Below are positions 3,773 through 58,996 of a stretch of 64,000 nt of DNA, one piece after another. Source of the stretch: Sanchytrium tribonematis. Lineage: Eukaryota. A program made the translations under genes and the position numbers. Under the pieces are notes generated by a model, which was not told the DNA's origin, made no database searches, and worked only from the letters and a program-made list of their open reading frames with translations. Position 1 is the first letter of the stretch. Every line of letters starts with the position of its first letter. The stretch covers positions 1 to 64,000 of the forward strand of contig JADGIG010000002.1 of assembly GCA_018985235.1 (NCBI GenBank), read 5' to 3'.

Positions 3773-5108
3773 ATGCCTAAGCTACATCATTTTGTTATAT
3801 CCATATTATTATCATCCGCTTTCATACTGAACTATACATTAAGAATCGAGTGTAAATCTGCAGCCCATCTGAGTCAAACTTTTCAAAAATTAAATATCCC
3901 ACATCTTCAGTGTCAATTTAATCACCATTCGTATTTTAGATATATTATTTTGCAACAAAGTCGAAGGAAACAGTTTTGCGAGTCTGAGACTTTTTTATAT
4001 GACTTGATGGATGGTCTGAATCTGCCAACTCATCAGACTTTGCAGGTTTTACTTGATAATGTTAATGTTTTATACGATAACATCAAAACAAAAATATGTG
4101 GAAATGACTTTAAAATTTTAATTACAGCGAATTTGCACAATAATGAAGATGTTTTATCCAATTGGCTTTATCAACTGTCTTTATTTATAGACCACATTGG
4201 GTCGAGTCGAATAACAATAAGTATTTTTGAGTCTGCATCATCTGACGGTACGAAATCTTTTTTGAAGCAAGCTGCTGAGCTCTTTGATAGTCTCAATGTG
4301 CGTTATAAAATCATGACATCTCCAGAACATAAAAACAGCCAGATGCATCGAATTGATTTTCTCGCGATGGAAAGAAATAAAGCCTTGAGACCTCTGTTGA
4401 ACGAAAATCATACACACGTACTTTTTTTAAATGATGTTCTTTATTGTCATGCAGACGTATTAGAATTGCTTCTGCAAGCTATACTTAATGACTCTGATAT
4501 TACAAGTGGGATGGATTATGATACACCTTTTATATCTCCTAGTTTCTATGACGTATGGGTGGCTAGGGATGTTCAGGGTGCACCTTTGACAAAACATCCC
4601 TTTGATTACGTTACAAATCACACTCGAAGTTTGCGGCAGATACAAGAGGGTTTACCTATGCAAGCTATGTGTACTTGGAATGGCGCTGCGGTGCTTAAGT
4701 CGAAGCCTTTCATTGAAAAGAATATTTATTTTAGGCGTGGGTATAATAGATTGGAAAATTTGAAAGAAGCTGGTGAGTGCTCTGCGAGTGAGATCACAAC
4801 CTTGTGTATGGATTTAATTAGAAATGGCTTCGATAAGTTTTTGGTGATTCCTCGTGTCAAAGTAATTTAATTTTATGTAGCTTGCCTACGATTTTAATAC
4901 GTATCACTCTATTAAGTCATCTTTATTTGCGGCCCGATTCCCTCCAAACAAGCCATTTACTTTAAACGAATCACTTCCATTTTCGTTTGAAAAACTAGCC
5001 TCTAAACACTTGTGTAATCCTACGTTCGACCGATGCTACGAAAGAAGTCCATGTAATACCACGGCATATTATTGGGAAGATGTTCCTAATTTAGATCGTC
5101 CTAATTGA
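3773..5108 (+). CDS. CAP59/CMT1-family (GT69) alpha-1,3-mannosyltransferase; exons 3773-4861, 4881-5108
   Basis: N-terminal membrane anchor. Motifs ANLHNNE, SIFESASSDGT, RIDFLAMERNKAL, FLNDV, FYDVWVARD, CTWNG, CSASE. Removing the intron restores PRVK|LAY. Confidence 0.85.
4862..4880 (+). other. 19-nt GT-AG intron
   Basis: GTAATTTAATTTTATGTAG contains the in-frame stop. Splicing gives PRVKLAY and 75 further open codons. Confidence 0.9.
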
Positions 5109-5139
5109 AATAATTACGCTGTTTTATTATTACGACCAC

Positions 5140-6427
5140 CTAGCCCCATGGATTATCTTGAAATTCGGGAATAAATTGATTGAAAGATGGGTCTGGTTTT
5201 TTACGAGGACTCTTTTTAGGTGACTGTGACTGAATTAACTTATCTGGTAAAGCCCACTCGTTACCTGAAGTAGCAATTGGTTCGATATGGTGTGCTAACT
5301 TTCCCATAGGTTCTTTGCTCATATTCGGTGTTATTGGTGGAGAAGTTGAATAAAAATCGCCAAATTCATTTTCAGATAATTTTTCGTTGTTTTCAATCTG
5401 AGGGATTGTTTTATTTTCTCCAGTGGTATTTGTATCATTTGAGGTATCTATAAAATTAAAATTTGTTGTAGCATTATCTTTATCATATGGACTTACAACA
5501 TAATCAGAACTACTTTTGCTTACCACTTTTTCATTAGCTTTTCCCAAATTTTGAAGTGAATTCTGATTATTAAATAAATCAGTCTTAGGATTTTCAAATT
5601 GAGTTGCAGGCATTGGGCTCGCATAAGTCTTTGAAGGTTCGGAAATATTTTGAGTTTCACCGAAAAAATCAAACGTTGAACTCAAAGACTTCTTTTGATG
5701 AGTGACTTCCTCTTTCAAGCCGGTGCTAGAATTACTGGCGTATGTTGAATTTGATGTCGAACTTTTTTTCTCTGTATCATTAGTAAAAAGCCCCAAAATG
5801 TCATTGCTGTTTAGTTTTGATTCTTTCTTGGTACTGGGCTTAGTATCTGAAAACATTTCAAAAGAAGCAAATAAGTTTTGCACAGGCGCTAATTTTTTCG
5901 TAGAATTAATTTCTTGTGGAGCAATCTCCATATTGCCGAAATCTAAAAGTTCATCTGCTCTAGATGCCGAAGTCAGGCTTTTGGATTGTGTCTGTGTGAC
6001 AGAGCCAACATGTATCAAATTAGGATCTGGGATAGGGCCCTCCCTACAATATCTTCTAAACTCGTATTTGCCTCGTATAAAGCTGTCCGAGCTCTCCCTT
6101 AAGGTACAATTGCCTTTTCCCTCCCAGTACCAATTTGCTTTCAAATTCCCCCAATTTTTTAAAAACAGGTAGTTTTCTTCCGTTAACAAATCAAGATCGA
6201 CAGACCTTACCTTACTCAAATGGACACCCAGACCTGTGTTAAATGGAAGTACCTCTATGAAATCCACTACATTTCGTGCAAATAAAACAGCCAATATTAA
6301 TAGAGCACCATCTGGCGTCTTTTTGACCGCAATCTGCACAGACTTCATTACCAGGTTCTCTAAGAAGAAGTTTTGCTAAATCCCTGTATTTGGTTCCAAT
6401 TTTTTCTCTTTCCGCACGCGTAGACAT
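5140..6427 (-). CDS. ArfGAP-domain protein (SMAP/AGE2-like); exons 6427-6253, 6233-5140
   Basis: CADC-x16-CTKCSGFHR|GLGVHLSKVRSVDLD zinc finger is completed only after intron removal. Low-complexity tail with DLF/DFF and NPW motifs. Confidence 0.9.
6234..6252 (-). other. 19-nt GT-AG intron
   Basis: GTACTTCCATTTAACACAG. Removal joins the two halves of the ArfGAP catalytic motif in frame. Confidence 0.95.
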
Positions 6428-6793
6428 TTTATGTTTCCAATTCCCCTAGTGTCATAATTAATCGTTGTTCCTTATTTCGCTATATTTTCAATTGTGTCTC
6501 TTCGTCTGCGAATCTTTTGCTTAACTGCAGCATCACATTATTTTGAAAAACAAAACAAATCAAGAATTTAAATTAAAGGAGTAAATTCGGATTTTGCTAC
6601 GATTTTCGTTAAATGGTCATTTACAAAGTATGCTTTTACACTTGAGATTTTTATCCCAGATATATTTATTGTCATATTTTATTCCTATATAAATGTGTAC
6701 TCAAAACAATTTGCAAGAATCTCGGGCATGAAAGCATTGGATCGGGAAATTTTTTTTCAGAAATTTTAATTGATAAGGAGTTTCCCTGTTTCA

Positions 6794-9088: not shown

Positions 9089-10939
9089 TCACTGCCAGTT
9101 AGTTTTGGAGGTTTGCACTATATTATCATTAATTACTTCACCGTGCTTTTTACAAAAACAAATAAACGAAGAAAGTCTCTTTTCCGTCTCTAGAGCGTGT
9201 GCGTACCACCATTGATTTGACAACGGTATAGAAATTGCCTTTTGAAGGCTAGCTGAAATTGAAATATTATCTTTGACAGGCAAATTTTTTAATTTCAAAA
9301 GGAATTGGCTGGATTCAACGATACTTCGGTAACATTTCAAGCCTTGCTCGAAGGCGCAAATTGGATGCATCCAATTTTGACATCTAGTCACATCACATTT
9401 CACAGTTACTCCAGTAAATGACCCAGGGGCTGATTTGCAAAGCCCGCATAAATTATATACCCTATGCAAAAGATCTTTTTCAAGTAGCTCACAATAAACA
9501 AAATTTTCAAGACCCCAAAGGTTAACCGGGATTTCCCTAAATCGTTTGGACCTTATTGATAAAATTTTGCGCTCATCAATAGCAACAGCCACTTCTTTTG
9601 TAAACATTGCACAAACAATGTGGCAATAGCCTAATTTTTTATCCGAGTCTAAAAGCGGGATCATTGGGGACAAAATCGAGTCAATTTTTTGACAGACTTG
9701 GCATACAATTTTACCATTTTCCAACTCCTCAAATTCTTCTTTGTCTTCAAGAAGCAACTCTACGTCTCTATTGAGGCGCAATCTAATCCTTCTAGGGGCA
9801 TAAGGCACCTTATTTTTGAAAACTTTGACAAAATCTAGTGTCACCGAATCACTAATACAGGTGCAGGCCTTAGCGAATTCTCCAATAGAATTCGCCCATC
9901 TTTCCAAAGCAAAATTTGTAGCTTCTGCGCAATTAAACCCTGTATTGAATCCAGAATGATACGAATAAGGAAAAGTAACAATAAACTCTCCTGCATTTTG
10001 AAAAGTTTTTAAATATTTTATATTATTTGTGTCTAAAATACTAGGTGACAAGATGTATTTTTTGTGCCGCATGAATTCCTTACATTGAGGATTGTCTTGC
10101 TGAAAAAGATGACTGCAAAAAGTTTCAAAGCGTTGCATTTCATTTGGTGGAATAACATACCAAAATTTCGGTGCACCGAGATGCAAAAAATTGATAGAAT
10201 AAAGATCCATGTCTTCAAGGTGCCATGCGAAGGTTGATTTCCACATTCCAAAATATAGGTAAGGGGTATTCACACCTGGTATAATTGTATCGACCGACTC
10301 CAATAATCCCGGCAATTTTCGAAGATTCCAATGCTCGGGTAAATTGTCTGACATCAAACTCCCACTAAGATCTGCACCGTAAAAACCTGATGAATAAGCC
10401 AATGTTTGCCAGAATTGCTTCTCGAGAATCGCAATCTCGCTTTCGTCAAAATCGATACTAGTGTGTGGTTTATCATTTATGGTGCTTGCATCTAAGGTAT
10501 TGAGTTCTTTATGATAGTTTTGCAATTTCTCTGCGAGACTATTTTCTTTTCCTACAGACCCTTTAAAATAAGGGGGACAAGAAGGATGAGTGAACGATTT
10601 GTCCACCCATTCTCCAACGCTGTAGGTACTTTCCTGTTCGATATTTAGTAATTGGTAGAGCCCAGTGTGTCCCACTATTTCTTGCTCAATCGAATTTTTT
10701 ATGCTTATATTTTCTAGAAGAGCAACTGCTTCTGGCAGTTGAGAGAGATATTCAATTGGTGGTATAATTTTGACCAGGCCGTAAAATTGACCGTAATGAT
10801 TGTCAATAAATTCCATAAGTTTGATAAAGTGTTTAAATTGATTGTAATTAGGCTTAAATACTGGAATATCATAGCAGTATTCGCTTGGGGCTATGGCAAT
10901 ATCACAGTCGCATTGAGGGCATTCTGAAAAGTTGGTCAT
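9089..10939 (-). CDS. KDM4/Rph1-type JmjN-JmjC histone demethylase with C-terminal extended PHD
   Basis: JmjN (IPVFKP...GLVKIIPP), JmjC (GVNTPYLYFGMWKSTFAWHLED, HSGFNTGFNCAE) and a Cys/His-rich C-terminus. Confidence 0.9.
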   Translation of the reverse strand: MTNFSECPQCDCDIAIAPSEYCYDIPVFKPNYNQFKHFIKLMEFIDNHYGQFYGLVKIIPPIEYLSQLPEAVALLENISIKNSIEQEIVGHTGLYQLLNIEQESTYSVGEWVDKSFTHPSCPPYFKGSVGKENSLAEKLQNYHKELNTLDASTINDKPHTSIDFDESEIAILEKQFWQTLAYSSGFYGADLSGSLMSDNLPEHWNLRKLPGLLESVDTIIPGVNTPYLYFGMWKSTFAWHLEDMDLYSINFLHLGAPKFWYVIPPNEMQRFETFCSHLFQQDNPQCKEFMRHKKYILSPSILDTNNIKYLKTFQNAGEFIVTFPYSYHSGFNTGFNCAEATNFALERWANSIGEFAKACTCISDSVTLDFVKVFKNKVPYAPRRIRLRLNRDVELLLEDKEEFEELENGKIVCQVCQKIDSILSPMIPLLDSDKKLGYCHIVCAMFTKEVAVAIDERKILSIRSKRFREIPVNLWGLENFVYCELLEKDLLHRVYNLCGLCKSAPGSFTGVTVKCDVTRCQNWMHPICAFEQGLKCYRSIVESSQFLLKLKNLPVKDNISISASLQKAISIPLSNQWWYAHALETEKRLSSFICFCKKHGEVINDNIVQTSKTNWQ

Positions 10940-10943
10940 AAAT

Positions 10944-10948
10944 CTCCT
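10944..10948. promoter_or_regulatory. CTCCT/AGGAG start-proximal motif (example, in a 27-nt divergent intergenic)
   Basis: One of at least 14 copies within about 20 nt of predicted ATGs; see findings. Confidence 0.55.
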
Positions 10949-10966
10949 TAGTTATGAAAATCATAA

Positions 10967-12785
10967 ATGCCAACTGCCGTTTTAGAAGCAGAGGCGGAAA
11001 TTATCAAATTTTTGGAAGGAACAGATAAGCTTTCAACAGAGTATTGGCAATTGCAAAAGATTGTCAAGTTTATTCAATCAGGCAATTATTCCACAACACT
11101 TATTGGAATAGTTGCCATGAAAGATTTTGAGTTGGGTAGCGACAGCTTTTCTTTGGGACTAAAACACTCTTTTGGAATGATGGCACTTATAAACTTGTTG
11201 AAAACAAAAGAATATAGTTGTATTTGTGGCTCCTTTGAAATTTTGATTGAAGTAACAAAGAAGTTAATAGGATGTGTTTTATTCTCACAATATTGTGGCT
11301 TGGAGGTGCTGCTAAATTTGCTGGATGCTAAAAATGAAAGCCTTGTATCGAATGCATGTCTCTTATTGTCGCAAGTGTTGGCTTATGACAGAAATCAATC
11401 GGAATTTATAAAAGGAAATGGATTTCAAAAATTGCTCAACGTTTTGAATATTAGGTACGGTACTAAAATTGGTGAGCATTCTGCAAAAGCAATTTATATT
11501 TGTCTTGGAAAATTGGAGAATCGACAGTATATGGTGGGTCTTCCAATAACATTCTACGATAAAATGTTAAATTCAGGTTATAAACCGATATTGCCTCACA
11601 TTGTTGGAATATTGTCAAAAATGACCTCAGATAGAATTTTTCGTCGAGAATTTGAGGCTTATGGCTTATTAAAAAAATGCTTAGAATTTCTGCAGGACTC
11701 TGATGATTCTCAATTATTATTAGCTGCTTCCGAGGTTGTTAGTAATTGTGAGAGTAATGAAAAAAACCTCAATCTTATTAAGGAAAAAAATTTTATTGAT
11801 AAAATTCTATCGCAATTATTTAACTTGAATTTAAAAGAGTCAAGTACTATCTCTCTTCTAGGGGCACTGAAATTTGCCTCTGGAAATCTAGATCTATCTA
11901 AAAAATTAACAGAAGACTCGCGATTGATAGATTATTGTATACAATGTTTGGATTCGGAATCAGAAAATATTGCTGTTGCTTCTGTTTCATTATTGGTAGA
12001 ATTGGCTCGAGCTGATGACGGGAAGAAATTTATCAAGTCTAAAAATTTACTAGATAATTTTATTTTGATGTTGAAAACTACAAATGTTGATTTAATGGAG
12101 CAAATCGCTTACCTATTTGGAGTTTGCGCTCAGGATTCATCTTTATTAAAAGATTTATATGCAAAAGGTGGTGTAGGTTTCATGTGGTCCCTACTAAAGT
12201 CAGACCATGCGAATCTTCAAGCAGCATCTGCGCAGTCCATGGGACCTTTTATAGCCAATATTTCTAGTGGAAATGATTTGATTCGATCTTTTGTGGGTAG
12301 TGTTGAGCTTGTAGTGAATCTATTGAAGTCCAATAATACAAGGGTGTTATCCAGTGCCTGCCTTGCAATTTCCAACATATCTAAAGATCCCGAAAATTTA
12401 GAAATTGTGACAGACCAAGGCATTGTGGAACTTTTTTCTAATTTGGTGAAATTCGATGAGATAGAATTACAAAAAAGTCTATGTTTAGCCATCTCTTCGT
12501 GCTCATTATCTGCTAGAAACAGATCCCGACTAATAGAATTTAAATTACTTGATTTTATTATAAAATGCCTTCTTTCCTCAGATATCGATTTGAAAGTATG
12601 TGCCAGCAAAAGTGTTTTTGAATTTAGCAAAGACGGTCAATTTAATTGATATAGTTACCAATTGTGAAAAATTAAAGTCTGTTGAAATTATTAAAAGCTT
12701 AGTCGATTTGGTGTGTAATCCGAAAGAAGAAATTCACAGCGTTGCAGCTCAATCTTTAAGAAATATTAGAAAAGCTGTTAAATAA
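10967..12785 (+). CDS. ODAD2: Armadillo-repeat outer dynein arm docking protein (ARMC4/ODAD2); exons 10967-12635, 12655-12785
   Basis: 'EYWQLQKIVKF' and 'WSLLKS...IRSFVGSVELVVNLLKS...KDPENLEIVTDQG' match ARMC4 blocks as I recall them. Confidence 0.8.
12636..12654 (+). other. 19-nt GT-AG intron
   Basis: GTCAATTTAATTGATATAG. Removal adds the final ARM repeat (...AAQSLRNIRK). Confidence 0.9.
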
Positions 12786-12798
12786 ACAGTTTATTGTT

Positions 12799-14655: not shown

Positions 14656-14660
14656 ATCAT

Positions 14661-15801
14661 TTAATTTTTGTCAAGGCTCTTCGATTCCTTGCTGTCTCTC
14701 CTACTAACGCTAGCTTGAATCCTTTTAGCGGCACGAACAGCGTTGACAGCTTTCTTAAAAGTTTTTTTGCACTTGTAATTCTCTATAAGTTCTGCACCTA
14801 CATCTTCTGAATGCATCCAAGAATGCTCTAGGGCACCTTCCATTGTAAGCCTAGATACAGGATCTTTCTCCAAAAGACGATTAATTAAATTTTTGGCATT
14901 GTCTGAAATGTGTCCCCAATATTCAGAATCGAATTCTGGCTCTAACTTAACAATTTCATAAAAGATCGCTTGTTGAGTTTCTCCATAAAATGGTACATAT
15001 CCGCATAATAATACATACATTATAACACCAACGGACCAAGAATCACACGGCTTTCCATATCCTTTCCGTAAAATTACTTCAGGCGCAACATATGCTGGGC
15101 TAAGTTATCATAAATTACGTTCCACAGGCAGTCTTCAACATTAAGTCGTCATTCGCAAGAACTTTACTCAGACCAAAATCAGTAATCATAACTTTGCCAG
15201 CAGGTAATTTTTCCGTCAATAAAAGATTCTCTGGCTTTATGTCCCTGTGGACAATATTTTGCTTATGTAAATACCAGACACCCTGCAATATTTGACGCAT
15301 AACTGTTCTTGCATCAGCTTCAGTAAAAGAGCCCCTGCCAACGATCTCTTGAAACAATTCACCACCTCTGGCAATTGGCATTACAAGATAAAAGTGAAGT
15401 GGGGTTTCAAAAATAGACTTTTCCGAACGCAAAGAAAGAATATTTGGATGCGAAACTTTTCTCATTATACTTATTTCGTCCCTTATACTAACTTTTCTTC
15501 CAGCCAGCTTTTGCTTATCTATGATTTTCATTGCAAATTGCTCATTTGATGATTTATCTTCTACAGTAACCACTTTTGCAAATGTTCCCTGGCCGAGGGT
15601 TTCTTTAATAGTGTAAAAGTATTCCACTGGAAATTGTTGAGAGAGCCTGCGTTCTCTAGGTTCTATTGGGAATAACATATCTCGCGGATTCATGAGCATT
15701 TCTTGATCAAGCTTTTCGACAGGAGATCCCTTTTTGGGTTCTTCTTCGTCATCAACTTTCATGTGTTTGAACTTTTCTTTTATTTTGTCGAAAAGCGGCA
15801 T
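14661..15801 (-). CDS. Ca2+/calmodulin-dependent protein kinase (CMK/CaMKI-like); exons 15801-15119, 15099-14661
   Basis: GQGTFA, HRDIKPEN, DFG, TACGT|PAYVAPE after splicing. CaM-binding tail FKKAVNAVRA. Confidence 0.92.
15100..15118 (-). other. 19-nt GT-AG intron
   Basis: GTAATTTATGATAACTTAG. Removal restores the kinase activation segment CGTPAYVAPE. Confidence 0.95.
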
Positions 15802-16182: not shown

Positions 16183-16214
16183 TCAGTAATAAAATTTATT
16201 TTAAAATAACTCAT

Positions 16215-16559: not shown

Positions 16560-18806
16560 ATGTCGAGAAAATCACAAACGGACAGAGTCTACCCTGAAAG
16601 CTCAGCACGCGAACACTTAAGTCAAGATGGGCATTTGAAATGGGAAGGAAACCTCTATACTATACAAAATGGTAAATGGATTTCAAATTTGGTACAAGTA
16701 TTTTCAAAAATAATGACTTTAAAGTCTATTCTGGGTACTCGGCGAATAATTGTCAGTAATATTATAAAAATAACAAAAATTGTCAATGAATCTGAAGAAA
16801 GTCGCAAATACCAGTGCGAAATTAAACTGCTCGATGAGTGTGTTGTTTTTGCGAGCCCGAAAGAACATGTGATTCTTTATTTTATGAGAACGTTGACTAA
16901 ATTGCTGATATCAGAACAGAGCAAAGAGAGCATAACTAAGAAATTGTTAGATTCTGAAAATGTTGCAATTTCAAAGTCGGTATCTATAGTTCCCGAAAAA
17001 ATTCAAACTAATGTGATTAGAATAAAGCAGGAATATTCATTTAAGGTTGGGAGTTTGGAGGATCTACGAAATGATGGAGATATTACGTATAGGACTTTAA
17101 AAAGTGGTCCTAGAAAAGCCCGCCAAAGAAATAATACTAATAAGCCTTTAGAAACTGGAAAAGTAAGAAATATAATTGGCCAGTCGAACAAAAAGATCAG
17201 CGGCTCAGAAAAAAAATTACAGGAAATGATTGCGTTCAGAATGGTTAGTGGTAAACCCGAGGACGAGGAATTAGAAGATTATATAGAGCCTTCGACTTTG
17301 AAAGAAGAACTAGAATTTATAACAAATGTGGATTGGGCATTTGTATGGTCTATTTTCAATATTAAACCTTTCTTTGTTCCCGTCACAAAGCGCAAAATAT
17401 TTCTATATATACTCTATATACTGGTCGGTACGTTTTTATCGGGTTTTACAGTTTTACCTTCTGCGTATGACATACTTGCAAAATTTTGTTCTATCAATGC
17501 CGCTTTGCTTTTAGTTCAATTCTTAATGATTGATCCAAGTGTAGTGCTTGCATGCGTGCTATTGTGTCGATATCCGCCTTTGCCTAAAAAGCAAAGAAGC
17601 AATAAAGAGAATCCTACCATAGGTCTTATTATAACATGCCACAAGTCTGCCGATGCCATTACTGAAACGTTAAAAGCTGCACTTGTTCATCTTGAACCCC
17701 AAAATATTTTCATTGCTGACAATGGTAACCAGAAAGAGCCCATGGACAACACTAGAAGCATTATTAAAGGACTTGACCCGCGAATTAATTATAGATGGAA
17801 TAACATTGGCAACAAAACTCTGGCACAATATCTGGCAGTGAGAGATATTGATCGGAATCGTAAAGATATTGAGCATATTTTGATTATTGATGACGACGTT
17901 ACAATAAGTGCACATTTGAGATTTCCAGTTGAAAGAATAGAAGGGAACACGAAGGCTTTAGTTATCGGAATCAGGGGAGTTGACAACAAAGGTAAACAAA
18001 AGGTTTTGTGGACTAAGTGGCAAGATATGGAATACAAAGTCTCCGATTTTGTTAAGATATTTCAAGACCAGTATTGTTCCGTGATGTACCCTCATGGTGC
18101 GATTTCTTTATGGGACAAAAAGATTTTGCTTCAAATTTTAGTAGACCACGATGCCATTTTTTACGCTGATGATGTAAAAATGGGTATGTGGTTGACTCGT
18201 AGAGGGTATCGCTTAGGATATTATGCAGATGCGGTCGTCGATACAGAAACTCCAGAAACAATTCTTGGACCTTCACCTAATTATTATAATCAAAGAGTTC
18301 GTTCTTGGGATTTTGCAGAACATATGTAGTTTTAATTGATGTAGGCTAACCTGGAGATATATAAAATGCCTTTTACTAGGATATATTAGTGGTCAGCCTT
18401 TACAAACATTACTGCTTAAGTTCTTCCAACTATATTCTCTGTATACAAATCTAATCGATTGGGCAAAAATTCCAGGAATAATCTTTTATATGACACATCA
18501 GCCTGCCATTTTTGGTGTAACTTTTTCATCGATGCTTTTTCTCAACACGTGCTCTATTCTCGCATGGAATTACATTTCCTGCAGAAATCGACCTGATATT
18601 AGAATTCAGCTCACTACTATTTTAACATTTCCGCTATATAAGCTTATTTCCTCAATAATTAGAATAATATCTGTCTTTCGGTGTGCATTAGTATATTGGC
18701 CTCGGTATTTTATTTTCATTTTAGATTCAAGTCGAAAGATTTTAGACCAAAACTACTCACTGAAGAAAGAATCACTGATATAGAATTGTGGATGGAGAAA
18801 AATTGA
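16560..18806 (+). CDS. Membrane GT2 glycosyltransferase with PH-like N-terminus; exons 16560-18325, 18345-18704 and probably 18725-18806
   Basis: IADN, IDDD, YADD and QRVRSW motifs with flanking TM helices. Intron removal joins the 18490 ORF in frame. Confidence 0.8.
18326..18344 (+). other. 19-nt GT-AG intron
   Basis: GTAGTTTTAATTGATGTAG. Joins EHM|LTWRY and the downstream TM region in frame. Confidence 0.9.
18705..18724 (+). other. Possible 20-nt GT-AG intron
   Basis: GTATTTTATTTTCATTTTAG. Splicing moves the stop to 18806, 6 nt from the convergent gene. The putative branch A is at -7 rather than -6, and the unspliced frame is also open. Confidence 0.5.
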
Positions 18807-26117: not shown

Positions 26118-27666
26118 TTACTGAATAGCTCCCCAGATGCATATTTTACCATCATCCGAAGCACTGGCGAATAAGTTGGGTATGAACGAATTCCAAATTA
26201 CACAAGCAACAGGTGAATCATGGTGACCCTCCAAAATCTCAATCAGCTCTTCACTTGACTTCGACCAAACGTATATCTTACCATCTGTCGAACCTGTGGC
26301 TACAAACGAATCCGATTTTCCTCCGAATCCACCCTGTACAACATATTTATCATGGGAATGTCCAATAAATTTACCGCCGCATTTACCAGTAAATATATTT
26401 TTTACCCTAATTTCATTAGAATGGTAAGTTACCATGATTTCTGGGAAAATTTTAGATGAGGCTATATCAACTATGGCTTCCTTTTCTTTAAAAATTCGAA
26501 CAGGTAGCTTTGTTGAAAGATCAATCACATGAATCGCCCTTTCTCCGCTAATGACTATCAAATTATTACTGCCTGAGTCAATTGCGATCGAGGTTATTCT
26601 AGGCAAGTTCCATTTATGAATAATTTTGCCCCGTTTGTCCCACATTACAAGAGGTGAATTGGTACTGGACGTTATAAAGTCTCCAGTTGAAGTCCATTCT
26701 AGGCCAGTTATGTCTCCATTGTGTATTTCCAAAGATACCATAAGTTTCTTTTTCTGAATTAGTAAAAGAAACCTGTATATCCCAAAGTTTGACCGTAGCA
26801 TCCGTAGAACCACTAAGCAGATATTTGTCTTCCGGAGAAAATTTGATTTTTGTGATGCTTTCTTCGTGGTCATCAAATACAGCCAAGCAATTTCCTGCGA
26901 GATCCCAAACTTTAATTTTAGCATCCTTCCCCCCACTGGCAAAGTAATGTGTTTTGTTCCCCCATGCCAAAGCCCAGACTTCTGAATCGTGTCCTTGTAT
27001 CTGTAAGGACACTTTTCTGGGGAAAAATTCACTGCTGCATTTGTGGTCTTGGAACAATGAAAATTGGCAGTTATCAGAGTGATAAGTACAATTTTGCTTC
27101 TGGAGTTCAAAGGACTGCTGTAACAAATTTTCTAATCTATTCTGAGGAATTACTAAATTGCAAGGAAGATGCTCTTCGAGGTTTTGCATAATCTTGCAAC
27201 GCGTATTGGATATACTTTCATAACATTGATAAAGCTCGTTGTTTGAGCACATAATAAGCCTTGTAAATTGTTGCGTATATTTCTCTCCTATTGAAAAGGA
27301 TATTTTTCGCAGATATTGTAATGCATATAATCTGTTGCCTGACAGAATTTGCTCGAGAAGTTCTTGCCTATGGATTAATATTTTAAGTTCAAGGCCGTTT
27401 TCCAATTTCAAATCATCAATAGTGTTATAGACTGAAGACCAGTCACCCTCAATTATACCATTGCGGAGTTTCGAAACTTCTTTACTTTCCATTAATACAC
27501 CAGATTCACTTTGAAGCAATTTTGCAGTGGAAATGTATCCCATTTTTTGAAGTTGCAGGCAAAGAAGTCTAGTCAATTCTTTAGAATCAATAGTAATTCT
27601 TGACGAATGGTCCTCTATCTTGATCCTCTTTGATTTTGATTCATCAAATTCACCCCTTCTTCTCAT
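26118..27666 (-). CDS. WDR26/Gid7 (LisH-CTLH-WD40); exons 27666-26773, 26753-26118
   Basis: LisH (ELTRLLCLQLQKMGY..TAKLLQSESG), CTLH, IPQNRLENLL, CTYH and WD40 repeats. Confidence 0.88.
26754..26772 (-). other. 19-nt GT-AG intron
   Basis: GTTTCTTTTACTAATTCAG with a CTAAT branch motif. Removal fixes the frame switch between WD40 repeats. Confidence 0.92.
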
Positions 27667-46481: not shown

Positions 46482-47802
46482 ATGACACCCAAATCTTTGA
46501 TTAAAGTTCAATCTGTAAGTTCGGGGAGCTTCAAATTTGCGAGGGAAGTTGCAAACGGTATACTTTCTTCTAAGAAGAAGGAGGAGTATTTTCCGAACGG
46601 GTTTTCAAAATTCATGGACAGTTTATTTTTAAATCCTTCATTTCAAATAACTGTTGTGCGGGAACTCGTATTTTAATTTGACTTAGGAGAGCCTTTTGAG
46701 TGACCCGGTAAAAAGAAATTTGGCAAAGAAGTACGACTTGGAAGAGCTCAGCCTTAACATTGATATTGACGATGAATCTAAAAGGGGGCATGAATTTCCT
46801 ATAATTGACAAAGAATTCCTATACCCGAAAGATTTGGACCTCAGGTTTCAGAGAGAATTCATTTCTAGATATTATCCACAACACCTACCAAAAGAAGATA
46901 AATATCTCACTCCAGATGGTAGGTACCACCCCAAAATGCTAATTTATAAACTTAAAAACAAATCATCGAAAAAGTTTTTGATGTATTTTTCAGGTGGTGC
47001 TTTTTTAATGAATCACCACACTATGTTTATGCATTTTCCAAAGTACTATCCCGAATATAATCTTGTTTTTGTGCAATATGGAATGTCTCCTGAATTTTCC
47101 TATCCGCGCGGAATTATTGATGCCATTGATGCCTATCATACAATTTGCACAAAATATTCACCAGAATCGATTGTTTTAATGGGAGACTCTGCTGGCGGAC
47201 ATTTGTCTCTTCAAGTAGCAGTTTATGTAGCTTTAAATTTTGAAAAAGACTACAGGGAAGAAGATGAAGCAATCGGCAGAAGTACTCGAAACCTGAGCAC
47301 GTTCTACCTAAAACCAGCATGTTTGGTACTTTTATCTCCTTGGACAGACATGACTTTAGAAGGCAGATCAGTTGAATATAATGGCAAGAATGACTCTATA
47401 AAGCCAAGTTTTGGTCTTCACAAATTTCGAGAGCTGTACCTGGGGCTTCCTTTAGAATCTAATCCTGAAAGAAAAGAATTACCTTTTATCCAAGCAGGTG
47501 AAAATCATTTCAGGACCATGCCCATGCTCACGGATGAAGATTTAAAAAGACCCCAATTTAGTCCCTTTTACTATGATAAAGAAATTTTGGCACTTCTTCC
47601 TCCAATTAACATTCAGACTGGTGATAAAGAAATACTACTTTCTGATAATGAGTCGATGGCTCTGAAATTAAAAGAAATCAAAGTTGATTGTAAATGGTCT
47701 GTTTACCCATTTCAAGTGCACATGTGGCAATCATTGCCCTGGATGGAAACGACTAAAGGAAGTTTCGAAGAAGGAAGACTATTTGTTAAAGAACATGAGT
47801 AA
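46482..47802 (+). CDS. Alpha/beta hydrolase (HSL-like esterase); exons 46482-46667, 46687-47802
   Basis: YFSGGAF, GDSAGG, LLSPW, E-I-L-L-S-D, H-M-W-Q. The upstream ATG exon joins via a 19-nt intron. Confidence 0.88.
46668..46686 (+). other. 19-nt GT-AG intron
   Basis: GTATTTTAATTTGACTTAG. Phase 0; supplies an ATG exon to an ORF that otherwise has no ATG for about 80 codons. Confidence 0.88.
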
Positions 47803-52260: not shown

Positions 52261-55021
52261 AAGCAGAATTGTTGGATAATAGAGACACCAAAAACACCAG
52301 AAAGTTGTCTGCTTTGCAGAAAATATTAGCTAATATGACAATGGGACAAGATATGTCCTTACTTTTTAATGAAGTGATTAATTGTCTAAGTTATAACAAC
52401 ATAGAAATGAAAAGGCTAGTTTATTTATATTTACAGCACTATGCTAAGCAGAAGCCGGATCTAAGCATAATGGTCATGAACAGTCTCACTAAAGATATCC
52501 AAGACATTAATCCTTTAGTTCAAGTGATGGCACTTAAAACAATTCCGTTTATTGCGAGTGACAAAACAACCAATTCCTTCACGGATGTTCTGAGAAAAGC
52601 CCTGCAGGAAAAGAATCCATATGTAAAAAAATCAGCTGTTATGTGTGTCGTCAAAATAACTCATTCTTTGGCTTTATCTGAGTCCGACCAAGACAAAGAA
52701 TGGGTTATACGAGAGGGTTTGTTGGATATAGTGAGATCATTGGTTCATGACCCATCACCTGCAGTTATGACTTGCAGCTTGACAGCAATTTCACAGATAT
52801 CTGAAGTTGTGCAAGACGTTAAGTTAGAAATCGATTTTGTTACAGCATCCAAAATTGCCACTGCATTAAATGATTGTATTGAGTGGCATCAAATCCAGGT
52901 TTTAGAATACCTTTTGAATTTTATTCCAGGAACAGAGGAAGATGCTCTAAGTATTTCAGATAAAGTTGCGAATAGACTTCAGCATTCGAATAGCGGGATC
53001 GTTTTAGCAACAGCTAGACTAATACTGTATCTTTCAAATTGGTTCAAAGAGGTTGAGACCAAACAAATCTATGTTAAAAAAATCTTGTCCCCTATGATTA
53101 CTCTTTTAAATCATTTCCCAGAGGTTCAGTATGTAGTTTTGAAAAATATTTTGCTAATAATTCAACAAAACCCAACATTTCTAAGTGGCTCTCAATATGT
53201 GAAATCCTTTTTTGTAAAATACAATGACCCAATTTATGTTAAACTCACGAAACTTGAAATTTTGGTACGCATAGTCGACGAAGAAAGTGTACCTCAGGTT
53301 GTGACTGAGTTAAAAGAATATTCTCAAGAAGTCGACATTGAATTTGCACGAAAGTCTGTAAGAAGTATTGGAGTTTGTGCCATGAAAGTGGAATCTATGG
53401 CATCAAAGTGTATCAATGCCCTGGTGGAACTAGCAAAAACTCAGATCTCTTATATTGTACAAGAGGTGATAGTAGTTATGAAAGATCTATTTCGCACATA
53501 TCCCAACAAATATGAAGGCCTTATTTCGCAACTATGTGAACATCTTTCAACCATAGAAGAGCCAGAAGCCAAAGCCTCTATGATATGGATCGTTGGTCAG
53601 TATTCTGATAGAATTGAAAATTCACTTGATGTATTGCAAGAATTTTACAACAAGTGGGATGAGGAACCTTACATTGTAAAACTGGCAATATTAATAGCAA
53701 TTGTCAAATCTTTCTTTTACAAATCCAAAATATTTGAAGCTATTCTAAAAGATATTTTGAAAAAATGTTCAGAAAGTTGTGAAAATCCAGATATTAGAGA
53801 CAGAGGTTTAATGTATTGGCGAATGATCTCAAAAAATCCAAAACAAGCAAAATCAATCGTGTTGAAAGAGAAGCCGGCTGCAAATATTGAAACGGCTGAT
53901 CTCGACGAAAATTTAATAATGGAGCTGATATTCTATTTTGGGACACTGCCCTCAATCACAACAAGAACCCCAAAGAGCAAGATTAAATACAAGCGGAAGG
54001 GAAAAGGTTACATTGGAAATGAAGACAATGGTCCGCTTCAAGTAAATCTTGCCTCGATTGAAGTGGACGATCGAGAGGTATTAAGCCCTGACGGTGGCTT
54101 TATGGTGTCCCCTGTTGATGAGTCCAATTTTCTGAACAAGTATAATCAATACTACGATACAAATTCCAATTCACCAGCTAAAACTAGTCCATCTGAATAT
54201 TTTTTACCACAGGATAATGGTCCAACTATTACCACTACTAACGACGATTCTGGTGAAGACGATATTGATCCAAGGGACATTTCGTCAACAAAAAGTATAA
54301 GAAGTGTTCCGTCAATTAGGAGAGACATTTGGCTCACTTCAGACATCGGCAATGGTTTGTCAATAGAAGGTTATTTCACAAAGCAAAGCAGCTCACTTAC
54401 TGCCAATATGTCAATTACTAATATGACTATCTCTCCAATCCAAAATTTTGCATTATTTTTCGATAAAAATCATTTTGGTTTAAGTCCGTCTGTCATTCCA
54501 AATGCCAATCTACCTTTAGGTCAAACGGCTGATTTCAAATTTGAAATTATTATAAATCCAGCCAAAGTTCTCAAGAAAGATACTTATGATAATTTTAATG
54601 TGCTTAAAGCCGCCATATCGACAAATAAGGGTAGTACTGTTTTTAGTATCAAAGTACCGTTAAAGTATTTGACTCTAGTTGCACCACTTCAATTAAATTT
54701 TGAGAAATTTATATTGGAGGCAAAAGAATTGGCTACACAAGGTCTTCCTTTGATCAAGTCACAATTTCCAATTCCAGTTATAAAACAAACAATTCCTAGC
54801 TTTGACGAGTCGGGCCTTTATATAGTGAACACCAATGAATCAAACGTATGTTTACATTTACTTAGGGAATTATTTTGTATATCCATGCAGTGTTATTAGA
54901 TGGAAACAAATTTTACTGGATCTTACAGTCTTCAAATAATCAAACGACAGTTAGTATGAGATCAACCGCAAAGTACGCGAATGAGTCTTTCAACACTACA
55001 TTCTGGTCTGATGTCTTGTAA
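52215..55021 (+). CDS. AP-1/AP-2 beta-adaptin; exons 52215-54845, 54866-55021
   Basis: MKRLVYLYL, FFVKYNDPIYVKLTKL, NPDIRDRGLMYWR and an appendage domain. Confidence 0.92.
54846..54865 (+). other. 20-nt GT-AG intron
   Basis: GTATGTTTACATTTACTTAG fits TNAYNYAG. Splicing adds 51 open codons resembling the appendage platform, ending at TAATAAA. Confidence 0.8.
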
Positions 55022-55039
55022 TAAATTTTATTATAATTT

Positions 55040-55934
55040 TCAGTGAATTACACTTGACAAAACTACTGCTAATATAATCAACAGAAAAATCATACATATG
55101 GATGAATAGCACATCCTCTTTCTATTTTTCTTTTGTTGCTGTAAAGCCTTGTCCATTTCCTGAACTCCTTTTTCTGTGTAGTCAACAGCCGCATTCACAT
55201 TTGTGTCAATTCTGGCCAACATATCCCCTTGTTGATTAACGAGTAAACTCAGGTCCAAAAACAGTTGTTGTAATTCAAGAAGTGATTTCTCGATTTTCAT
55301 CAAATCTTGATGACGCTCTTGTACTTCTGACAATACTCTTTGGGCTTCCCTTTGAGAAGAACCCATCATCTATATAAGTAAGTAGAACCTGCTGTGAAAA
55401 TAATGCATCTGGATTAGGAGAGTTTACAACATTATCGAGCTCTTCCTTCGTCGCACCAGGCTTAATTATCTTATATTGTTTCTCAATTTTGGTTTTGTAG
55501 CGATCCTTAAATTTGTTTTGAGTGTCATTGTACTTCTGAACTTGCTCTTGAAATTGTTTCGCAACCAAGCCGTGTTGAGTCACTCTGATTCTAAAGTCAT
55601 TCGTATTATTTTTACCTGCTTTTTCAAGATCTTTATTTTCTGCATCCATATCTTTCAAAATTTTCCTTATCTCGAAATTTACACCGCTAATATCAACCAT
55701 CAATTGCTCCACAATATCTCTCGTCTTTTTAGAGTCCTCGTCGCTCACCGCTTGGAGAGATCTATTATGAGAATCATCAACTTTATCAACTAAGGTTTTC
55801 AATTTATTCAGTAAACCTTTTACATGCTCAATCCTTTTCAAAAACTCATTACTTACACCACCTTCTTCAGCCTTAATTAAAGAATTAGAGCGGTCTACTC
55901 CATTAGAATTCAATTGATTCATTCTGTCTACCAT
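55040..55934 (-). CDS. Plasma-membrane syntaxin (Sso1/syntaxin-1-like); exons 55934-55389, 55369-55040
   Basis: Habc helices, SNARE motif (EVQERHQDLMKIEKSLLELQQLF...QG) and a C-terminal TM. Confidence 0.92.
55370..55388 (-). other. 19-nt GT-AG intron
   Basis: GTTCTACTTACTTATATAG. Joins Habc to the SNARE domain in frame. Confidence 0.93.
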
Positions 55935-56348: not shown

Positions 56349-56984
56349 TTACAACAATTTTTTGGGGTCAATAAGTTGTGGTTCAAATTTAAATTGTGCA
56401 CAAAATTCCTGACAGACATCGTCGACAAATGTATCGAAACAAAGCTTTTCGTCCAAACAGGTTTCAACACTCGTCATTTTCATACCTTTTAAACCACATG
56501 GTACTATCTTCTCAAACCATGGCAAAACTTCTTTGGAAAAATTGATCGCAGCACCATGGCAAGTTATAAATCTTTGAACATGAACTCCGATGGACGCGAT
56601 TTTCTTTTGCTCTACATAAACCCCGATGTTGTTGTTTGTCTCCGCGCAAATATTGTATTTTGAAAGTACTGATAGAATGACAGATTCTAACTTATTAATG
56701 TACTCTTTAATTGTGAGATTTAACGCTTTTAAATCCAAAATTGGATATAAAACCAATTGACCAGGACCATGAAAAGTAGTTTGACCGCCCCTTTGCAATT
56801 TAATTACCTGACAAAATGATTGTAAATGAAGGAATTCTGAATTTGTCAATAGTTGTCTTCTTCCGAGAGTGAAAGTTGGATAGTGCTCACAAAGTAGAAC
56901 GCAAAATGTTCTATTATTTTTAAGAGTATTTTGCATTTTTAAAGCTGTATTAAATGGAATTTTACCTAATTTTGAAAAAAGCAT
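56349..56984 (-). CDS. LIP2: Lipoyl(octanoyl)transferase LipB/Lip2
   Basis: EHYPTFTLGRR, RGGQTTFHGPGQLVLYP, KIASIG, HGAAIN, IVPCG. Confidence 0.93.
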   Translation of the reverse strand: MLFSKLGKIPFNTALKMQNTLKNNRTFCVLLCEHYPTFTLGRRQLLTNSEFLHLQSFCQVIKLQRGGQTTFHGPGQLVLYPILDLKALNLTIKEYINKLESVILSVLSKYNICAETNNNIGVYVEQKKIASIGVHVQRFITCHGAAINFSKEVLPWFEKIVPCGLKGMKMTSVETCLDEKLCFDTFVDDVCQEFCAQFKFEPQLIDPKKLL

Positions 56985-56999
56985 TGGTTTTGCGGAGTT

Positions 57000-58412
57000 T
57001 TATTGTTTTTTCGATTTTTTTACATTATTGGTGCTCAGCGACTTCAATGATCTTTTGACAATACTGGGAAAGTTCTGCGCTGCCAAATTAACAAGATTTT
57101 CTCTACATTCATGATCAACGTTTAACTTCAAATCAGCTATCTGATCCAAAGAATCAGAAGCTTCATGGAGTACCAGAGCCTCTAGTTTAGTTCTTTGGGC
57201 CTCTAAAAAGGGATCTCTGAGTCCAAGGTGATCATCAATTTGGGTGTTATTTATGAGATCTTCAAAACCTTTAATCAAGGTATCTTCAACAGAAGTTGAT
57301 TCCGGAAGTGTGGGATATCTTAGATCGTCTATCAATGGAGCTTCAATTAGAAAGAATCCGCAAGGTCTAATTTGAAGTCCTTTTTTTATAATTTCTTGTC
57401 GAGGAATAAGCAAGCCAAGTCTGTTGACAGCTATTTTCGATAATCTAAACGATGCCAACAACCCGCATCGATTTTTTAAACAGGAGTTTAATAGAGCTGT
57501 AAAAAGTTTAGAGCTATTTTTAAATTTGTGGTCTGCAGGAAATATAAACCGGGATTCTTTTAAACTTAAAATTGGGTCATAGGTCATAGAAACCACTTTT
57601 AAAATGTTGATTCCTATTTCTCCAATGTTTCTAAGCTGAACTCTTTCTTCAGCAGAAAATTTGACGTGAATATTGCTTTCCTTCTTCCCAAATCCGTCCA
57701 TGATATATTCTTTGATTTTTTTTCTTTTGAGAATTGTTAGCGCTTCATCATTTTCAGTAAGCCTGATTGGCTTGGGCGCTCTAAATTGCTTGTACAGCAT
57801 ATAGGACTTGACTCCTATAACAATACTTCCAAAACGTAGAATGGTATCCGCCGAAGCTTTCTTCGGCTTCGATTCGAAAATGTTTAAATCTTGCGTCATA
57901 AGTTCTTTTAAATTTGAGTTCCCAATAAGCTGGCATTCTGAATTAAAGTCAGTAATATCTTTGAGTCTTGTGCTAATGATTGTAGAAGTCAGATCATAGT
58001 GATCATCGGTTACAAAGACTACATTTTTTTCCTCTTTAATATCCTTAATCTGTAGACTGATTAAAAATAAAACGTTCTGAAATGAAGACTCGCGCATTTT
58101 GCTTGATTTGGGTTCAAATTTTTGCAAAATTTTATACATATCTCGATTGCAGTCTTTCAAGGGAACTAAAATCCTGATTCCATCAAGATAAGCCTTTTTT
58201 TCCAGAGGATTCATGTCACTGGGCATTGATGCTTCCTCTTCTGGATAATTGAATAATATAATTCCCATTTTATGATTCAAATTTTCATAAAATAGGTCTT
58301 TAAGCCTAGTGAGAACAAGGAATTTATCGTATTTCTTATAATCAATAGCAAAGAGCACCGCCTGTTTTCCACTGGCCAAAATCTCATCGTCATTTGTTGT
58401 AAAAAATTCCAT
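57000..58412 (-). CDS. KU70: Ku70 (shortened, no evident SAP domain)
   Basis: AVLFAID (vWA), FIFPAD...SSKLFTALL, PQEI...PCGF..I..P..DDLR. Confidence 0.75.
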   Translation of the reverse strand: MEFFTTNDDEILASGKQAVLFAIDYKKYDKFLVLTRLKDLFYENLNHKMGIILFNYPEEEASMPSDMNPLEKKAYLDGIRILVPLKDCNRDMYKILQKFEPKSSKMRESSFQNVLFLISLQIKDIKEEKNVVFVTDDHYDLTSTIISTRLKDITDFNSECQLIGNSNLKELMTQDLNIFESKPKKASADTILRFGSIVIGVKSYMLYKQFRAPKPIRLTENDEALTILKRKKIKEYIMDGFGKKESNIHVKFSAEERVQLRNIGEIGINILKVVSMTYDPILSLKESRFIFPADHKFKNSSKLFTALLNSCLKNRCGLLASFRLSKIAVNRLGLLIPRQEIIKKGLQIRPCGFFLIEAPLIDDLRYPTLPESTSVEDTLIKGFEDLINNTQIDDHLGLRDPFLEAQRTKLEALVLHEASDSLDQIADLKLNVDHECRENLVNLAAQNFPSIVKRSLKSLSTNNVKKSKKQ

Positions 58413-58467
58413 TCAGTGTTTTGGGGGGATTCAAATCGGCCGATAATTTTAATTTCCGAGGCTATAG

Positions 58468-58996
58468 ATGGGTCCTGAATCACAAATTTTGCACCAGAAT
58501 GAAGAATTGAGCATTCAAGAAGAACTCTTAGCAGTTGCTCTAAAGATTAGTCCAAAAGCTTTAATGGAGTTGAAAGTACATATTTAATTTGATTCTAATA
58601 TAGGATATATTCAATTTGGTGGATTCAGATCACGGCGGATCAATCGAGTCCGATGAGCTTGGTATGTTGATGCAAACTTTGGGAATGAAAAAGGAAAGAA
58701 TTAATGAAATCACTGACAAAATCATGAAAGATTTTGGAAACACAAATTCCATCGACTTTCCATCATTTTGCAAAGCAATGGTTAAACCGGAATCTCCAAG
58801 CCAGGACAAGCAAGATATAGAGCAAGCTTTTTATTCCTTATTTGGGAAACAAACCATCGAGGTAAGCACAATCAAGGAAACTTTAAAATTATGCGCCAAA
58901 GATGATGATTTTGACAAGATTATTGAAGCCGTGTTTCCAGGCGACAAAATTAATATTTCCCAGTTTATAGAATCTAATTTATATAACTTAAATTAA
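58468..58996 (+). CDS. Calmodulin/centrin-like EF-hand protein; exons 58468-58575, 58604-58996
   Basis: ELK|DIFNLVDSDHGGSIESDEL is formed only after splicing. The later EF-hands are degenerate. Confidence 0.8.
58576..58603 (+). other. 28-nt GT-AG intron
   Basis: GTACATATTTAATTTGATTCTAATATAG, with CTAAT-A-TAG end. Confidence 0.85.

What the first reader, a model, noticed from the sequence alone, without database searches (positions are those of the whole stretch)
4873..58603. Branch point fused to acceptor at fixed spacing (TNAYNYAG, A at -6)
Seen: the last 8 nt of 11 of 12 introns are TTATGTAG, TAACACAG, TGATATAG, TAACTTAG, TGATGTAG, TAATTCAG, TTACTTAG, TGACTTAG, TTACTTAG, TTATATAG and TAATATAG. 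All have T at -8, A at -6 and a pyrimidine at -5, with no polypyrimidine tract. The donor is degenerate beyond GT (GTA, GTT, GTC). Inference: the branch A sits at intron position 14, giving a 14-nt lariat loop, too short for normal simultaneous U1 and U2 footprints. The intron seems defined by a ruler rather than by donor sequence. A conserved A at -6 is also described for Stentor tiny introns, suggesting convergence.
Basis: partly seen in the sequence, partly recalled or inferred. Interest (0 to 1): 0.85.

Follow-up and report, generated by a model that had tools for sequence, protein, structure and literature searches.

The report
19-base introns with end-anchored branch site
A compact, likely fungal genome breaks about one gene in five with likely introns of only 19 to 28 bases, each with an A six bases before its end that is likely the branch point; that layout is known from Yarrowia yeast and the ciliate Stentor, but this size would be below the shortest fungal introns found in print, and RNA proof is lacking.

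Summary
The 3' motif is real. All 11 listed ends were found; nine introns are 19 nt, one 20, one 28. GT…TNAYNYAG peaks at 19 nt (17 versus a mean of 5.9; 15 sense, 2 antisense). Five junctions are fixed by homology without using the motif, and all five carry it. Five read-through proteins of unnamed relatives fit 19–21-nt introns with the same end. The motif reads as a degenerate yUnAy branch site anchored to the AG, the spacing published for Yarrowia and inferred for Stentor, so the spacing is a known kind. The A follows the AG, not position 14, and GTs 16 nt upstream are skipped, which points to a length floor. The donor keeps weak signal (A-2, A+3, T+6) but lacks G+5. Sense-strand look-alikes show that GT, motif and length are not sufficient. 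What appears new is the size in a likely fungus: the microsporidian minimum in print is 22 nt, and the public proteins of this genome are unspliced. This scan noted similar 25–30-nt introns in Rozella.

The parts
4862..4880 (+). 19-nt intron, phase 0, in CAP59-family mannosyltransferase gene (3773-5108)
   Evidence: Removal extends the ORF by 73 codons; exon 2 has no Pfam hit; in-frame alternative donors at 25 and 37 nt. ORF evidence only.
6234..6252 (-). 19-nt intron, phase 1, in ArfGAP gene
   Evidence: PF01412 matches profile 4-44 up to the last residue of exon 1 and resumes at 46 on the first full codon of exon 2; the split codon fills 45. Homology-fixed.
12636..12654 (+). 19-nt intron, phase 1, in armadillo-repeat gene
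   Evidence: ARM_ARMC5 match runs to residue 555 of 556; exon 2 has a sub-cutoff Arm hit, E 0.0019 and PDB armadillo hits. Other junctions are possible. Partly fixed.
15100..15118 (-). 19-nt intron, phase 2, in CaMK-like kinase gene
   Evidence: PF00069 ends at profile 157 on residue 225 of 227 and resumes at 162 on residue 2 of exon 2; the residue count closes the gap exactly. Homology-fixed.
18326..18344 (+). 19-nt intron, phase 2, in GT2 glycosyltransferase gene
   Evidence: Removal adds 144 codons; a nearer GT at 16 nt would create an in-frame stop (read). ORF evidence only.
26754..26772 (-). 19-nt intron, phase 0, in WDR26-like gene
   Evidence: Relative P0278 lacks this intron and aligns without a gap across the junction; best of 10 candidate junctions, 436 bits against 432 for the next. 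Homology-fixed.
29398..29416 (-). 19-nt intron, phase 0, in Yop1/REEP gene
   Evidence: PF03134 stops at profile 63 of 77 on residue 131 of 132; exon 2 has no hit alone. Partly fixed.
46668..46686 (+). 19-nt intron, phase 0, in alpha/beta-hydrolase gene
   Evidence: Joins a 62-codon ATG exon to a 371-codon ORF; an in-frame tandem AG at 22 nt cannot be excluded. ORF evidence only.
54846..54865 (+). 20-nt intron, phase 0, in adaptin beta gene; putative branch A at +15
   Evidence: Relative P0123 (68% identical) diverges at the same codon; its back-translated tail admits 16 of 24 exon-2 residues in the shifted frame, against a maximum of 11 in 300 shuffles. Homology-fixed.
55370..55388 (-). 19-nt intron, phase 0, in syntaxin gene
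   Evidence: 3 of 3 relatives end 3-5 residues after the same codon; spacing to syntaxin-1A and Sso1 agrees within one residue; no in-frame alternative within 45 nt. Homology-fixed.
58576..58603 (+). 28-nt intron, phase 0, in calmodulin-like EF-hand gene; putative branch A at +23
   Evidence: Exon 2 starts at EF-hand profile position 4 directly after an in-frame stop; only candidate of 10-60 nt listed at this locus; also called by the motif-blind gene model. Partly fixed.
9118..9136 (-).
   Evidence: Fits the motif, 93% AT; removal changes a 15-residue tail to a 20-residue tail; no homology test. Unverified.
56945..56965 (-). 21-nt look-alike in the LipB gene that appears to be coding
   Evidence: Matches GT..TNAYNYAG, yet its codons align without a gap to LipB structures.
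20354..20372 (-). 19-nt look-alike in the FAN1-like ORF; removal would frameshift the gene
   Evidence: Shares A-2, T+6, Y-9 and 80% AT with the accepted introns; that part of the protein did not align to PDB FAN1. Unresolved.

Best explanation
These segments are likely real major-type (U2) spliceosomal introns shrunk to a lower length limit of about 19 bases, and the YTNAYNYAG end that they share is likely a loose branch site fused to the acceptor, predicted to be read by U2 as one unit with the A at -6 as branch point. Shown in the sequence or in calls: the frame breaks, GT-AG ends, the invariant T-8/A-6/Y-5/Y-3, use of the first AG after the donor, use of the nearest GT at least 17 nt from the AG, and skipping of GTs at 16 nt. 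Inferred: U2 pairs with -11..-5; the 3' site follows by fixed distance, with no room for a pyrimidine tract; the donor is then the nearest acceptable GT beyond a minimum loop of about 14 nt, helped by weak cues (A-2, A+3, T+6) and AU-richness; deletion bias holds most introns at the floor. In a 19-nt intron only positions +7 and +8 lie between the donor hexamer and the branch helix, so U1 and U2 likely bind one after the other, or in a remodelled complex, not in the human arrangement.
For: Length and strand excess. Five homology-fixed junctions, 5 of 5 with the motif (joint shuffle P 1.5e-6). Relatives: P0123 admits only a 19-nt intron in the right frame, with A-6, Y-5 and Y-3 forced by its codons; P0276 and P0278 admit an AG inside their tails only at 21 nt, with T-8, A-6, Y-5 and Y-3 all forced; P0274 and P0275 end in TAY plus a stop codon, which fits a TAYTRA branch site in a 20-nt intron. 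Information is concentrated at the 3' end: 6.1 bits raw over -11..-3 against 1.8 over +3..+8, with about 0.22 per column expected from sampling. Accepted introns are more AT-rich than 24 look-alikes of 17-30 nt (0.83 against 0.65, P 1.6e-4) and more often have T+6, Y-9 and A+3. Same spacing in Yarrowia and Stentor; a floor-and-deletion model is proposed in PMC10245619.
Against: No spliced read or lariat was seen. Only 11 introns from one window, first picked by a reader who saw the motif; 3 of 11 rest on ORF extension alone. The motif-blind gene model recovered only 3 of 11 exactly and placed two others elsewhere. The 20-nt lengths for P0274 and P0275 assume the motif (a 15-nt AG that breaks the motif is also codon-compatible), and P0276 and P0278 also fit 26 nt. 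P0123 needs a one-residue indel next to the junction. The features compared were chosen on the same 11 introns. Look-alikes in FAN1 and LipB are not explained by the rule. U2 pairing scores of the look-alikes (3-5 of 6) overlap those of the introns. Six non-accepted sense matches at 19 nt against 1-3 at other lengths may mean missed introns.
Confidence: 0.72

Rival explanations
1. Strict 5' ruler: the machinery counts 14 bases from any GT to the branch A and ignores donor sequence, perhaps without U1.
For: 9 of 11 introns are exactly 19 nt; leave-one-out donor scores are at or below zero for 7 of 11; G+5 is absent in 10 of 11 here and excluded by codons in 5 of 5 relative tails; U1 was not identified in Mikrocytos or E. 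cuniculi.
Against: The 20- and 28-nt introns keep the A at -6, not +14; shared positions vary between 19 and 21 nt across relatives; A-2, A+3 and T+6 are enriched; 6 further sense 19-nt matches sit in continuous ORFs; Stentor and the B. natans nucleomorph keep U1 with introns as short or shorter.
Confidence: 0.12
2. The motif is an extended acceptor read by a protein (like the nematode TTTCAG end), and branching occurs at another or a variable position.
For: No lariat evidence; in a window this short an acceptor motif and a branch motif overlap; A at -7 is available in 4 of 11.
Against: A at -6 is the only invariant A; the order Y-T-N-A-Y matches the general branch consensus WCTRAY given in PMC2483917; relatives show TAYTRA; an upstream A would give a still smaller loop.
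Confidence: 0.1
3. The breaks are assembly errors, pseudogene lesions or programmed frameshifts and the GT-AG fit is coincidence.
For: No RNA support; the public protein set holds the unspliced ORFs (10 of 10, and 100% hits).
Against: Removal of exactly these bases closes Pfam profiles to the residue and matches an intron-less relative without a gap; 4 relative proteins break at the same codons; a frameshift alone would leave 6 extra residues and, in 8 of 11, a stop inside the segment.
Confidence: 0.04
4. T-8/A-6 reflects selection for stop codons in retained introns, not branch recognition.
For: TAA or TGA makes up -8..-6 in 7 of 11; 8 of 11 have an in-frame stop inside the intron; none of the 11 lengths is a multiple of 3.
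Against: 4 of 11 have TTA, not a stop; in 19-nt introns -8..-6 is in frame only in phase 1, which is 2 of 9.
Confidence: 0.02

Closest known systems
Yarrowia lipolytica fused branch point-acceptor (PMC2483917, passages; PMC2911113, passages)
   Same: Branch motif anchored 2 nt before the AG in the notation TACTAAC|Nn|AG, which puts the A at -6; no 3' pyrimidine tract; intron-poor genome.
   Different: Yarrowia introns are long (median 204 in the table) with a strong ACTAAC and GTGAGT donor; here the branch motif is loose, the donor lacks G+5 and the intron is 19-28 nt.
Heterotrich ciliate 15-16-nt introns, Stentor coeruleus (PMC9505925, parts 1-3 of 6)
   Same: AU-rich tiny introns, conserved A six bases from the end (position 10 of 15, 11 of 16), commonest intron starts GUAAUU.
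   Different: Shorter and almost uniform in length; no strong branch consensus; all five snRNAs and core U1 proteins are reported present; unrelated lineage.
Chlorarachniophyte nucleomorph 18-21-nt introns (PMC6461891, passages)
   Same: Same size class; little donor signal beyond GU.
   Different: Described as lacking an obvious branch motif; about 3 introns per kb against 0.2 here; endosymbiont nucleus with shortened but present U1 and U5.
Microsporidian introns, Encephalitozoon cuniculi (PMC3629993, passages)
   Same: Fungus-related, compact, intron-poor, GT-AG, retention causes stops or frameshifts.
   Different: 22-76 nt with strict donor and branch motifs; U1 not identified. Here the mode is 19 nt and the motifs are loose, in an organism with complex I and mitochondrial carrier genes.
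Mikrocytos mackini 16-17-nt introns (PMC10245619, section 7)
   Same: Narrow length range near a floor; deletion-bias model applies.
   Different: Highly conserved intron sequence and 17-19 spliceosomal proteins; the logo is a figure I could not see, so its branch spacing was not compared.
Myxobolid myxozoan and dicyemid short introns (PMC13644364, part 1 of 3)
   Same: Opisthokont parasites with introns under 30 nt and reduced splice-site motifs.
   Different: Median 22-27 nt; animals.

Membership tests
U2-type spliceosomal intron | GT...AG ends whose removal restores a conserved reading frame | tested here: met
   5 of 11 fixed by homology, 3 partly, 3 by ORF extension only.
U2-type spliceosomal intron | Branch-site-like sequence able to pair with U2 GUAGUA around a bulged A | tested here: inconclusive
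   TNAY in 11 of 11 and 3-6 of 6 pairs, but look-alikes score 3-5 of 6 and the organism's own U2 is unknown.
U2-type spliceosomal intron | Excision from RNA through a lariat | not testable with these tools
   No reads were available to lay on the window.
U2-type spliceosomal intron | U1, U2, U4, U5, U6 snRNAs and core proteins in the genome | not testable with these tools
   No genome is held; no snRNA in the 64 kb; the Ski2-like helicase scores higher to ASCC3/Slh1 than to Brr2.
Fused branch point-acceptor introns (Yarrowia, Trichomonas, Giardia type) | Fixed branch-to-AG distance with no pyrimidine tract | tested here: met
   A at -6 in 11 of 11 at three intron lengths; single peak at offset -6.
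Fused branch point-acceptor introns (Yarrowia, Trichomonas, Giardia type) | Strong ACTAAC-like consensus | tested here: not met
   -7 is T4/A4/G3, -9 is T6/C4/A1, -5 is T6/C5.
Ultra-short introns of near-uniform length (Stentor, Mikrocytos, nucleomorph) | Nearly all introns within 1-4 nt of a mode below 22 nt | tested here: inconclusive
   10 of 11 are 19-20 nt and one is 28 nt; one window only; in-frame introns without stops would mostly be missed.
U12-type intron | RTATCCTT donor and TCCTTAAC branch (consensus recalled, not from a call) | tested here: not met
   No donor or branch region of the 11 shows these (sequences).
Sanchytriomycota (lineage considered for the host) | Placement with a named sanchytrid sequence | tested here: inconclusive
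   RPC40 tree: long-branch clade with 4 unnamed proteins (100/99), weakly beside Gonapodya (77/84), no named member. GC near 35% resembles the published 34.64% and 36.27%; resemblance only.

The most novel reading that the evidence does not exclude
A whole fungal lineage splices the shortest opisthokont introns with a spliceosome that assembles from the 3' end: U2 defines the intron, U1 and U2AF are lost or vestigial, U6 has changed to accept donors without G+5, and the 5' site is simply the nearest GT beyond a 14-base loop.
Probability: 0.2. Interest if true: 0.8.

Novelty: new variant of a known kind. Interest (0 to 1): 0.55.

Why it matters
In human extracts about 50 nt must separate the 5' site from the branch point (PMC6692369); here the distance would be 14 nt. 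The systems known to beat that limit by this much are ciliates, mikrocytids and nucleomorphs. A fungal case would add an independent origin close to the yeast models and would show that A at -6 recurs in a third lineage, which suggests a lower bound on branch-to-AG spacing. The natural range of 19-28 nt and the skipped 16-nt donors make the floor testable. In practice the public proteins of this genome are unspliced fragments (10 of 10), so gene-loss claims for this lineage may need rechecking; 11 of 53 gene models here are affected.

Tried and rejected
Whole-genome logo and spliceosome inventory: no genome is held. RNA: no RNA holder listed for 10000-19900; this is no evidence either way, and no reads could be laid. 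Relatives' DNA: the one metagenome scan returned 3 short loci at 38-45% identity, below the 58-60% of the close clade; I read L001 only and used none of the three. Motif-blind gene model: too weak, 3 of 11 exact at penalty -8 and 1 of 11 at -12; not used as support. Search for the twelfth intron: ORF-join enumeration (needs at least 20 codons each side and a gain of 15) and a weight-matrix scan of 17-40 nt including GC donors gave no convincing non-matching intron. Hidden in-frame introns: none suggested in 7 alignments with relatives; two insertions in adaptin beta lack GT-AG ends. Rfam: 1 weak miRNA match, no snRNA. Adaptin exon 2 had no meaningful PDB hit. FAN1 N-terminus did not align. A recalled resemblance of 55983-56339 to IFT25 was not confirmed (no PDB hit; weak F5/8 hit), so flagellar genes are not used as lineage evidence. 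The protein atlas gave no answer. Earlier-findings look-ups by place and by sequence were empty. Rejected: U12 type; stop-codon selection as the cause of the motif; the helicase at 29846-33967 as Brr2.


Full report
Setting. The window is a gene-dense eukaryotic contig of about 35% GC. I drew 53 gene models from the ORF list and Pfam hits; the median gap between them is 30 nt and 8 of 52 neighbours overlap. Families include CAP59 (PF11735) and the complex I 21-kDa subunit (PF10785), which I recall as mainly fungal. Named RPC40 relatives reach 50% identity and are mostly fungi; three unnamed metagenome proteins reach 58-60%. In a tree of 50 chosen rows the window and 4 unnamed proteins form a long-branch clade (100/99) with no resolved sister. 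I read it as a fast-evolving early-diverging fungus; GC and compactness resemble figures published for sanchytrids, but no named sequence tests this. No whole genome is held.

The observation. All 11 listed 8-mers end GT-AG segments in the order given. Nine are 19 nt, one is 20 and one is 28. Counting GT..TNAYNYAG on both strands gives 17 at 19 nt against a mean of 5.9 at other lengths from 12 to 60 (Poisson P 1.4e-4), and a grid of length by A offset peaks at (19, -6). Inside gene models the 19-nt matches are 15 sense and 2 antisense. One further candidate lies at 9118-9136.

Are they introns? A motif-blind enumeration lists all 11 among many ORF joins, so homology has to choose. ArfGAP: the profile runs to 44 in exon 1 and resumes at 46 in exon 2, with the split codon between. 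Kinase: 157 at residue 225 of 227, 162 at residue 2 of exon 2, an exact fit. WDR26: relative P0278 has no intron here and aligns without a gap; this junction is best of the 10 I tested out of a longer candidate list. Syntaxin: 3 of 3 relatives stop 3-5 residues after the same codon, spacing to syntaxin-1A and Sso1 is within one residue, and no in-frame alternative exists within 45 nt. Adaptin beta: P0123 diverges at the same codon and its tail, read in the shifted frame, admits 16 of 24 residues of exon 2, against at most 11 in 300 shuffles. All five carry the motif; the joint shuffle probability is 1.5e-6. The EF-hand, armadillo and Yop1 junctions are partly supported; CAP59, GT2 and the hydrolase rest on ORF extension. 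Against: my gene model found only 3 of 11 exactly, and no transcript was seen.

Relatives. Their proteins appear to be unspliced read-throughs, so their tails encode the introns in degenerate form (5 of 5 tails examined). P0123 admits an AG at 19 or 30 nt; only 19 has the right frame, and there A-6, Y-5 and Y-3 are forced. P0276 and P0278 admit an AG inside the tail only at 21 nt, where all four motif positions are forced; 26 nt is also compatible. P0274 and P0275 end in TAY plus a stop, which fits the motif only at 20 nt; that length assumes the motif. Position +5 cannot be G in any of the five. So the system is shared across proteins 45-77% identical to the window's, lengths shift by 1-2 nt at shared positions, and at least one position differs between species.

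Anatomy. From the 3' end: T-8, A-6, Y-5, Y-3 in 11 of 11, Y-9 in 10 of 11. This is the order of the general branch consensus WCTRAY, and -11..-5 can form 3-6 of 6 pairs with GUAGUA, the U2 motif reported as highly conserved. From the 5' end: A-2 in 9, A+3 in 8, T+6 in 10, G+5 in 1 of 11. The acceptor is always the first AG after +5. The donor is always the nearest GT at 17 nt or more; in 2 of 2 introns with a GT at 16 nt it is skipped, and using it would break the protein. The A stays at -6 in the 20- and 28-nt introns.

Is the rule sufficient? No. Of 71 sense-strand motif sites, 35 have their nearest GT at 17-30 nt: 11 accepted and 24 not. The accepted ones are more AT-rich (0.83 against 0.65) and more often show T+6, Y-9 and A+3, though these features were chosen on the same 11. 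A 21-nt look-alike in LipB aligns as coding sequence; a 19-nt one in FAN1 passes most filters and is unexplained.

Mechanism. I commit to a branch-anchored model: U2 likely reads the fused branch-acceptor, the AG follows at fixed distance, and the donor is the nearest acceptable GT beyond a floor near 14 nt of loop. Sequence facts are shown; pairing, order of assembly and deletion bias are inferred. In human extracts about 50 nt are needed between 5' site and branch, and the B complex implies about 52, so the standard simultaneous arrangement is unlikely to fit. That does not imply loss of U1: Stentor keeps U1 snRNA and core proteins and the B. natans nucleomorph keeps a shortened U1, while U1 was not identified in Mikrocytos or E. 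cuniculi.

Comparison and novelty. Fixed branch-AG spacing is published for Yarrowia, Trichomonas and Giardia, with Yarrowia at the same -6; Stentor has a conserved A at -6; G. theta nucleomorph introns have a DURAU motif 2-3 nt from the end. It therefore works like these. It is not a member of the strong-consensus Yarrowia type (feature tested, not met). The new element is size in a likely fungus: E. cuniculi introns are 22-76 nt and the shortest animal medians are 22 nt. Searches for tiny fungal introns and for sanchytrids with introns or splicing listed no paper describing 19-nt fungal introns; the library lacks most subscription journals. The sanchytrid genome paper mentions introns only in a reference title and called ORFs with TransDecoder; I did not see its supplements, which could bear on this. 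All 10 unspliced ORFs that I looked up are on record as proteins. The scan's own notes describe 25-30-nt Rozella introns with a 5'-counted branch (unchecked); here the count runs from the 3' end.

Papers seen. Passages only: PMC2483917, PMC2911113, PMC3629993, PMC6461891, PMC6692369, PMC8371127, PMC8476143, PMC10459994, PMC13685798. Passages and section 7: PMC10245619. Parts 1-3 of 6: PMC9505925. Part 1 of 3: PMC13644364. Figures (logos) were not visible. The U12 consensus is recalled; the nematode acceptor is.

Verdict. Real feature, known kind of 3' architecture, new variant by size, looseness and lineage. Interest 0.55.

Noticed in passing
P0278 (relative of window 26118-27666): Lacks the window's WDR26 intron but stops at a different codon with a tail that fits a 21-nt intron with the full motif: likely intron gain or loss within the clade.
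   Followed up: partly
window, 11 intron-bearing genes: 8 of 11 introns lie in the 3' half of their coding sequence and 5 in the last quarter (from exon lengths), unlike the 5' bias reported for Stentor and yeast; introns near the start codon may have been missed.
   Followed up: no
window 29846-33967 (-): Ski2-like helicase scoring best to ASCC3/Slh1 (971 and 957 bits; Brr2 815) but only 1373 aa against 1806-1967 for those chains, with the next gene 33 nt away; likely shortened at the C-terminus.
   Followed up: partly
window 20354-20372 (-): Intron-like 19-mer in the FAN1-like ORF whose removal would truncate the protein; possible unproductive splicing.
   Followed up: partly
window 46668-46689 (+): Tandem acceptor: a second in-frame AG 3 nt downstream would put the A at -9; a natural test of the fixed spacing.
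   Followed up: no
window 1-3718: No ORF of 100 codons or more, unlike the rest of the window; may hold decayed or non-coding sequence.
   Followed up: no
window 52215-55934 and P0123, P0276: The relatives' adaptin beta and syntaxin are each listed with a longest contig of 14702 bases, which suggests the two genes are neighbours in that relative too.
   Followed up: no
window 3773-64000: Genes cover about 94% of the span; 8 of 52 neighbouring gene models overlap by 7-47 nt.
   Followed up: no
window 55983-56339 (-): 118-aa protein with a weak F5/8 type C hit; a recalled resemblance to IFT25 was not confirmed.
   Followed up: partly
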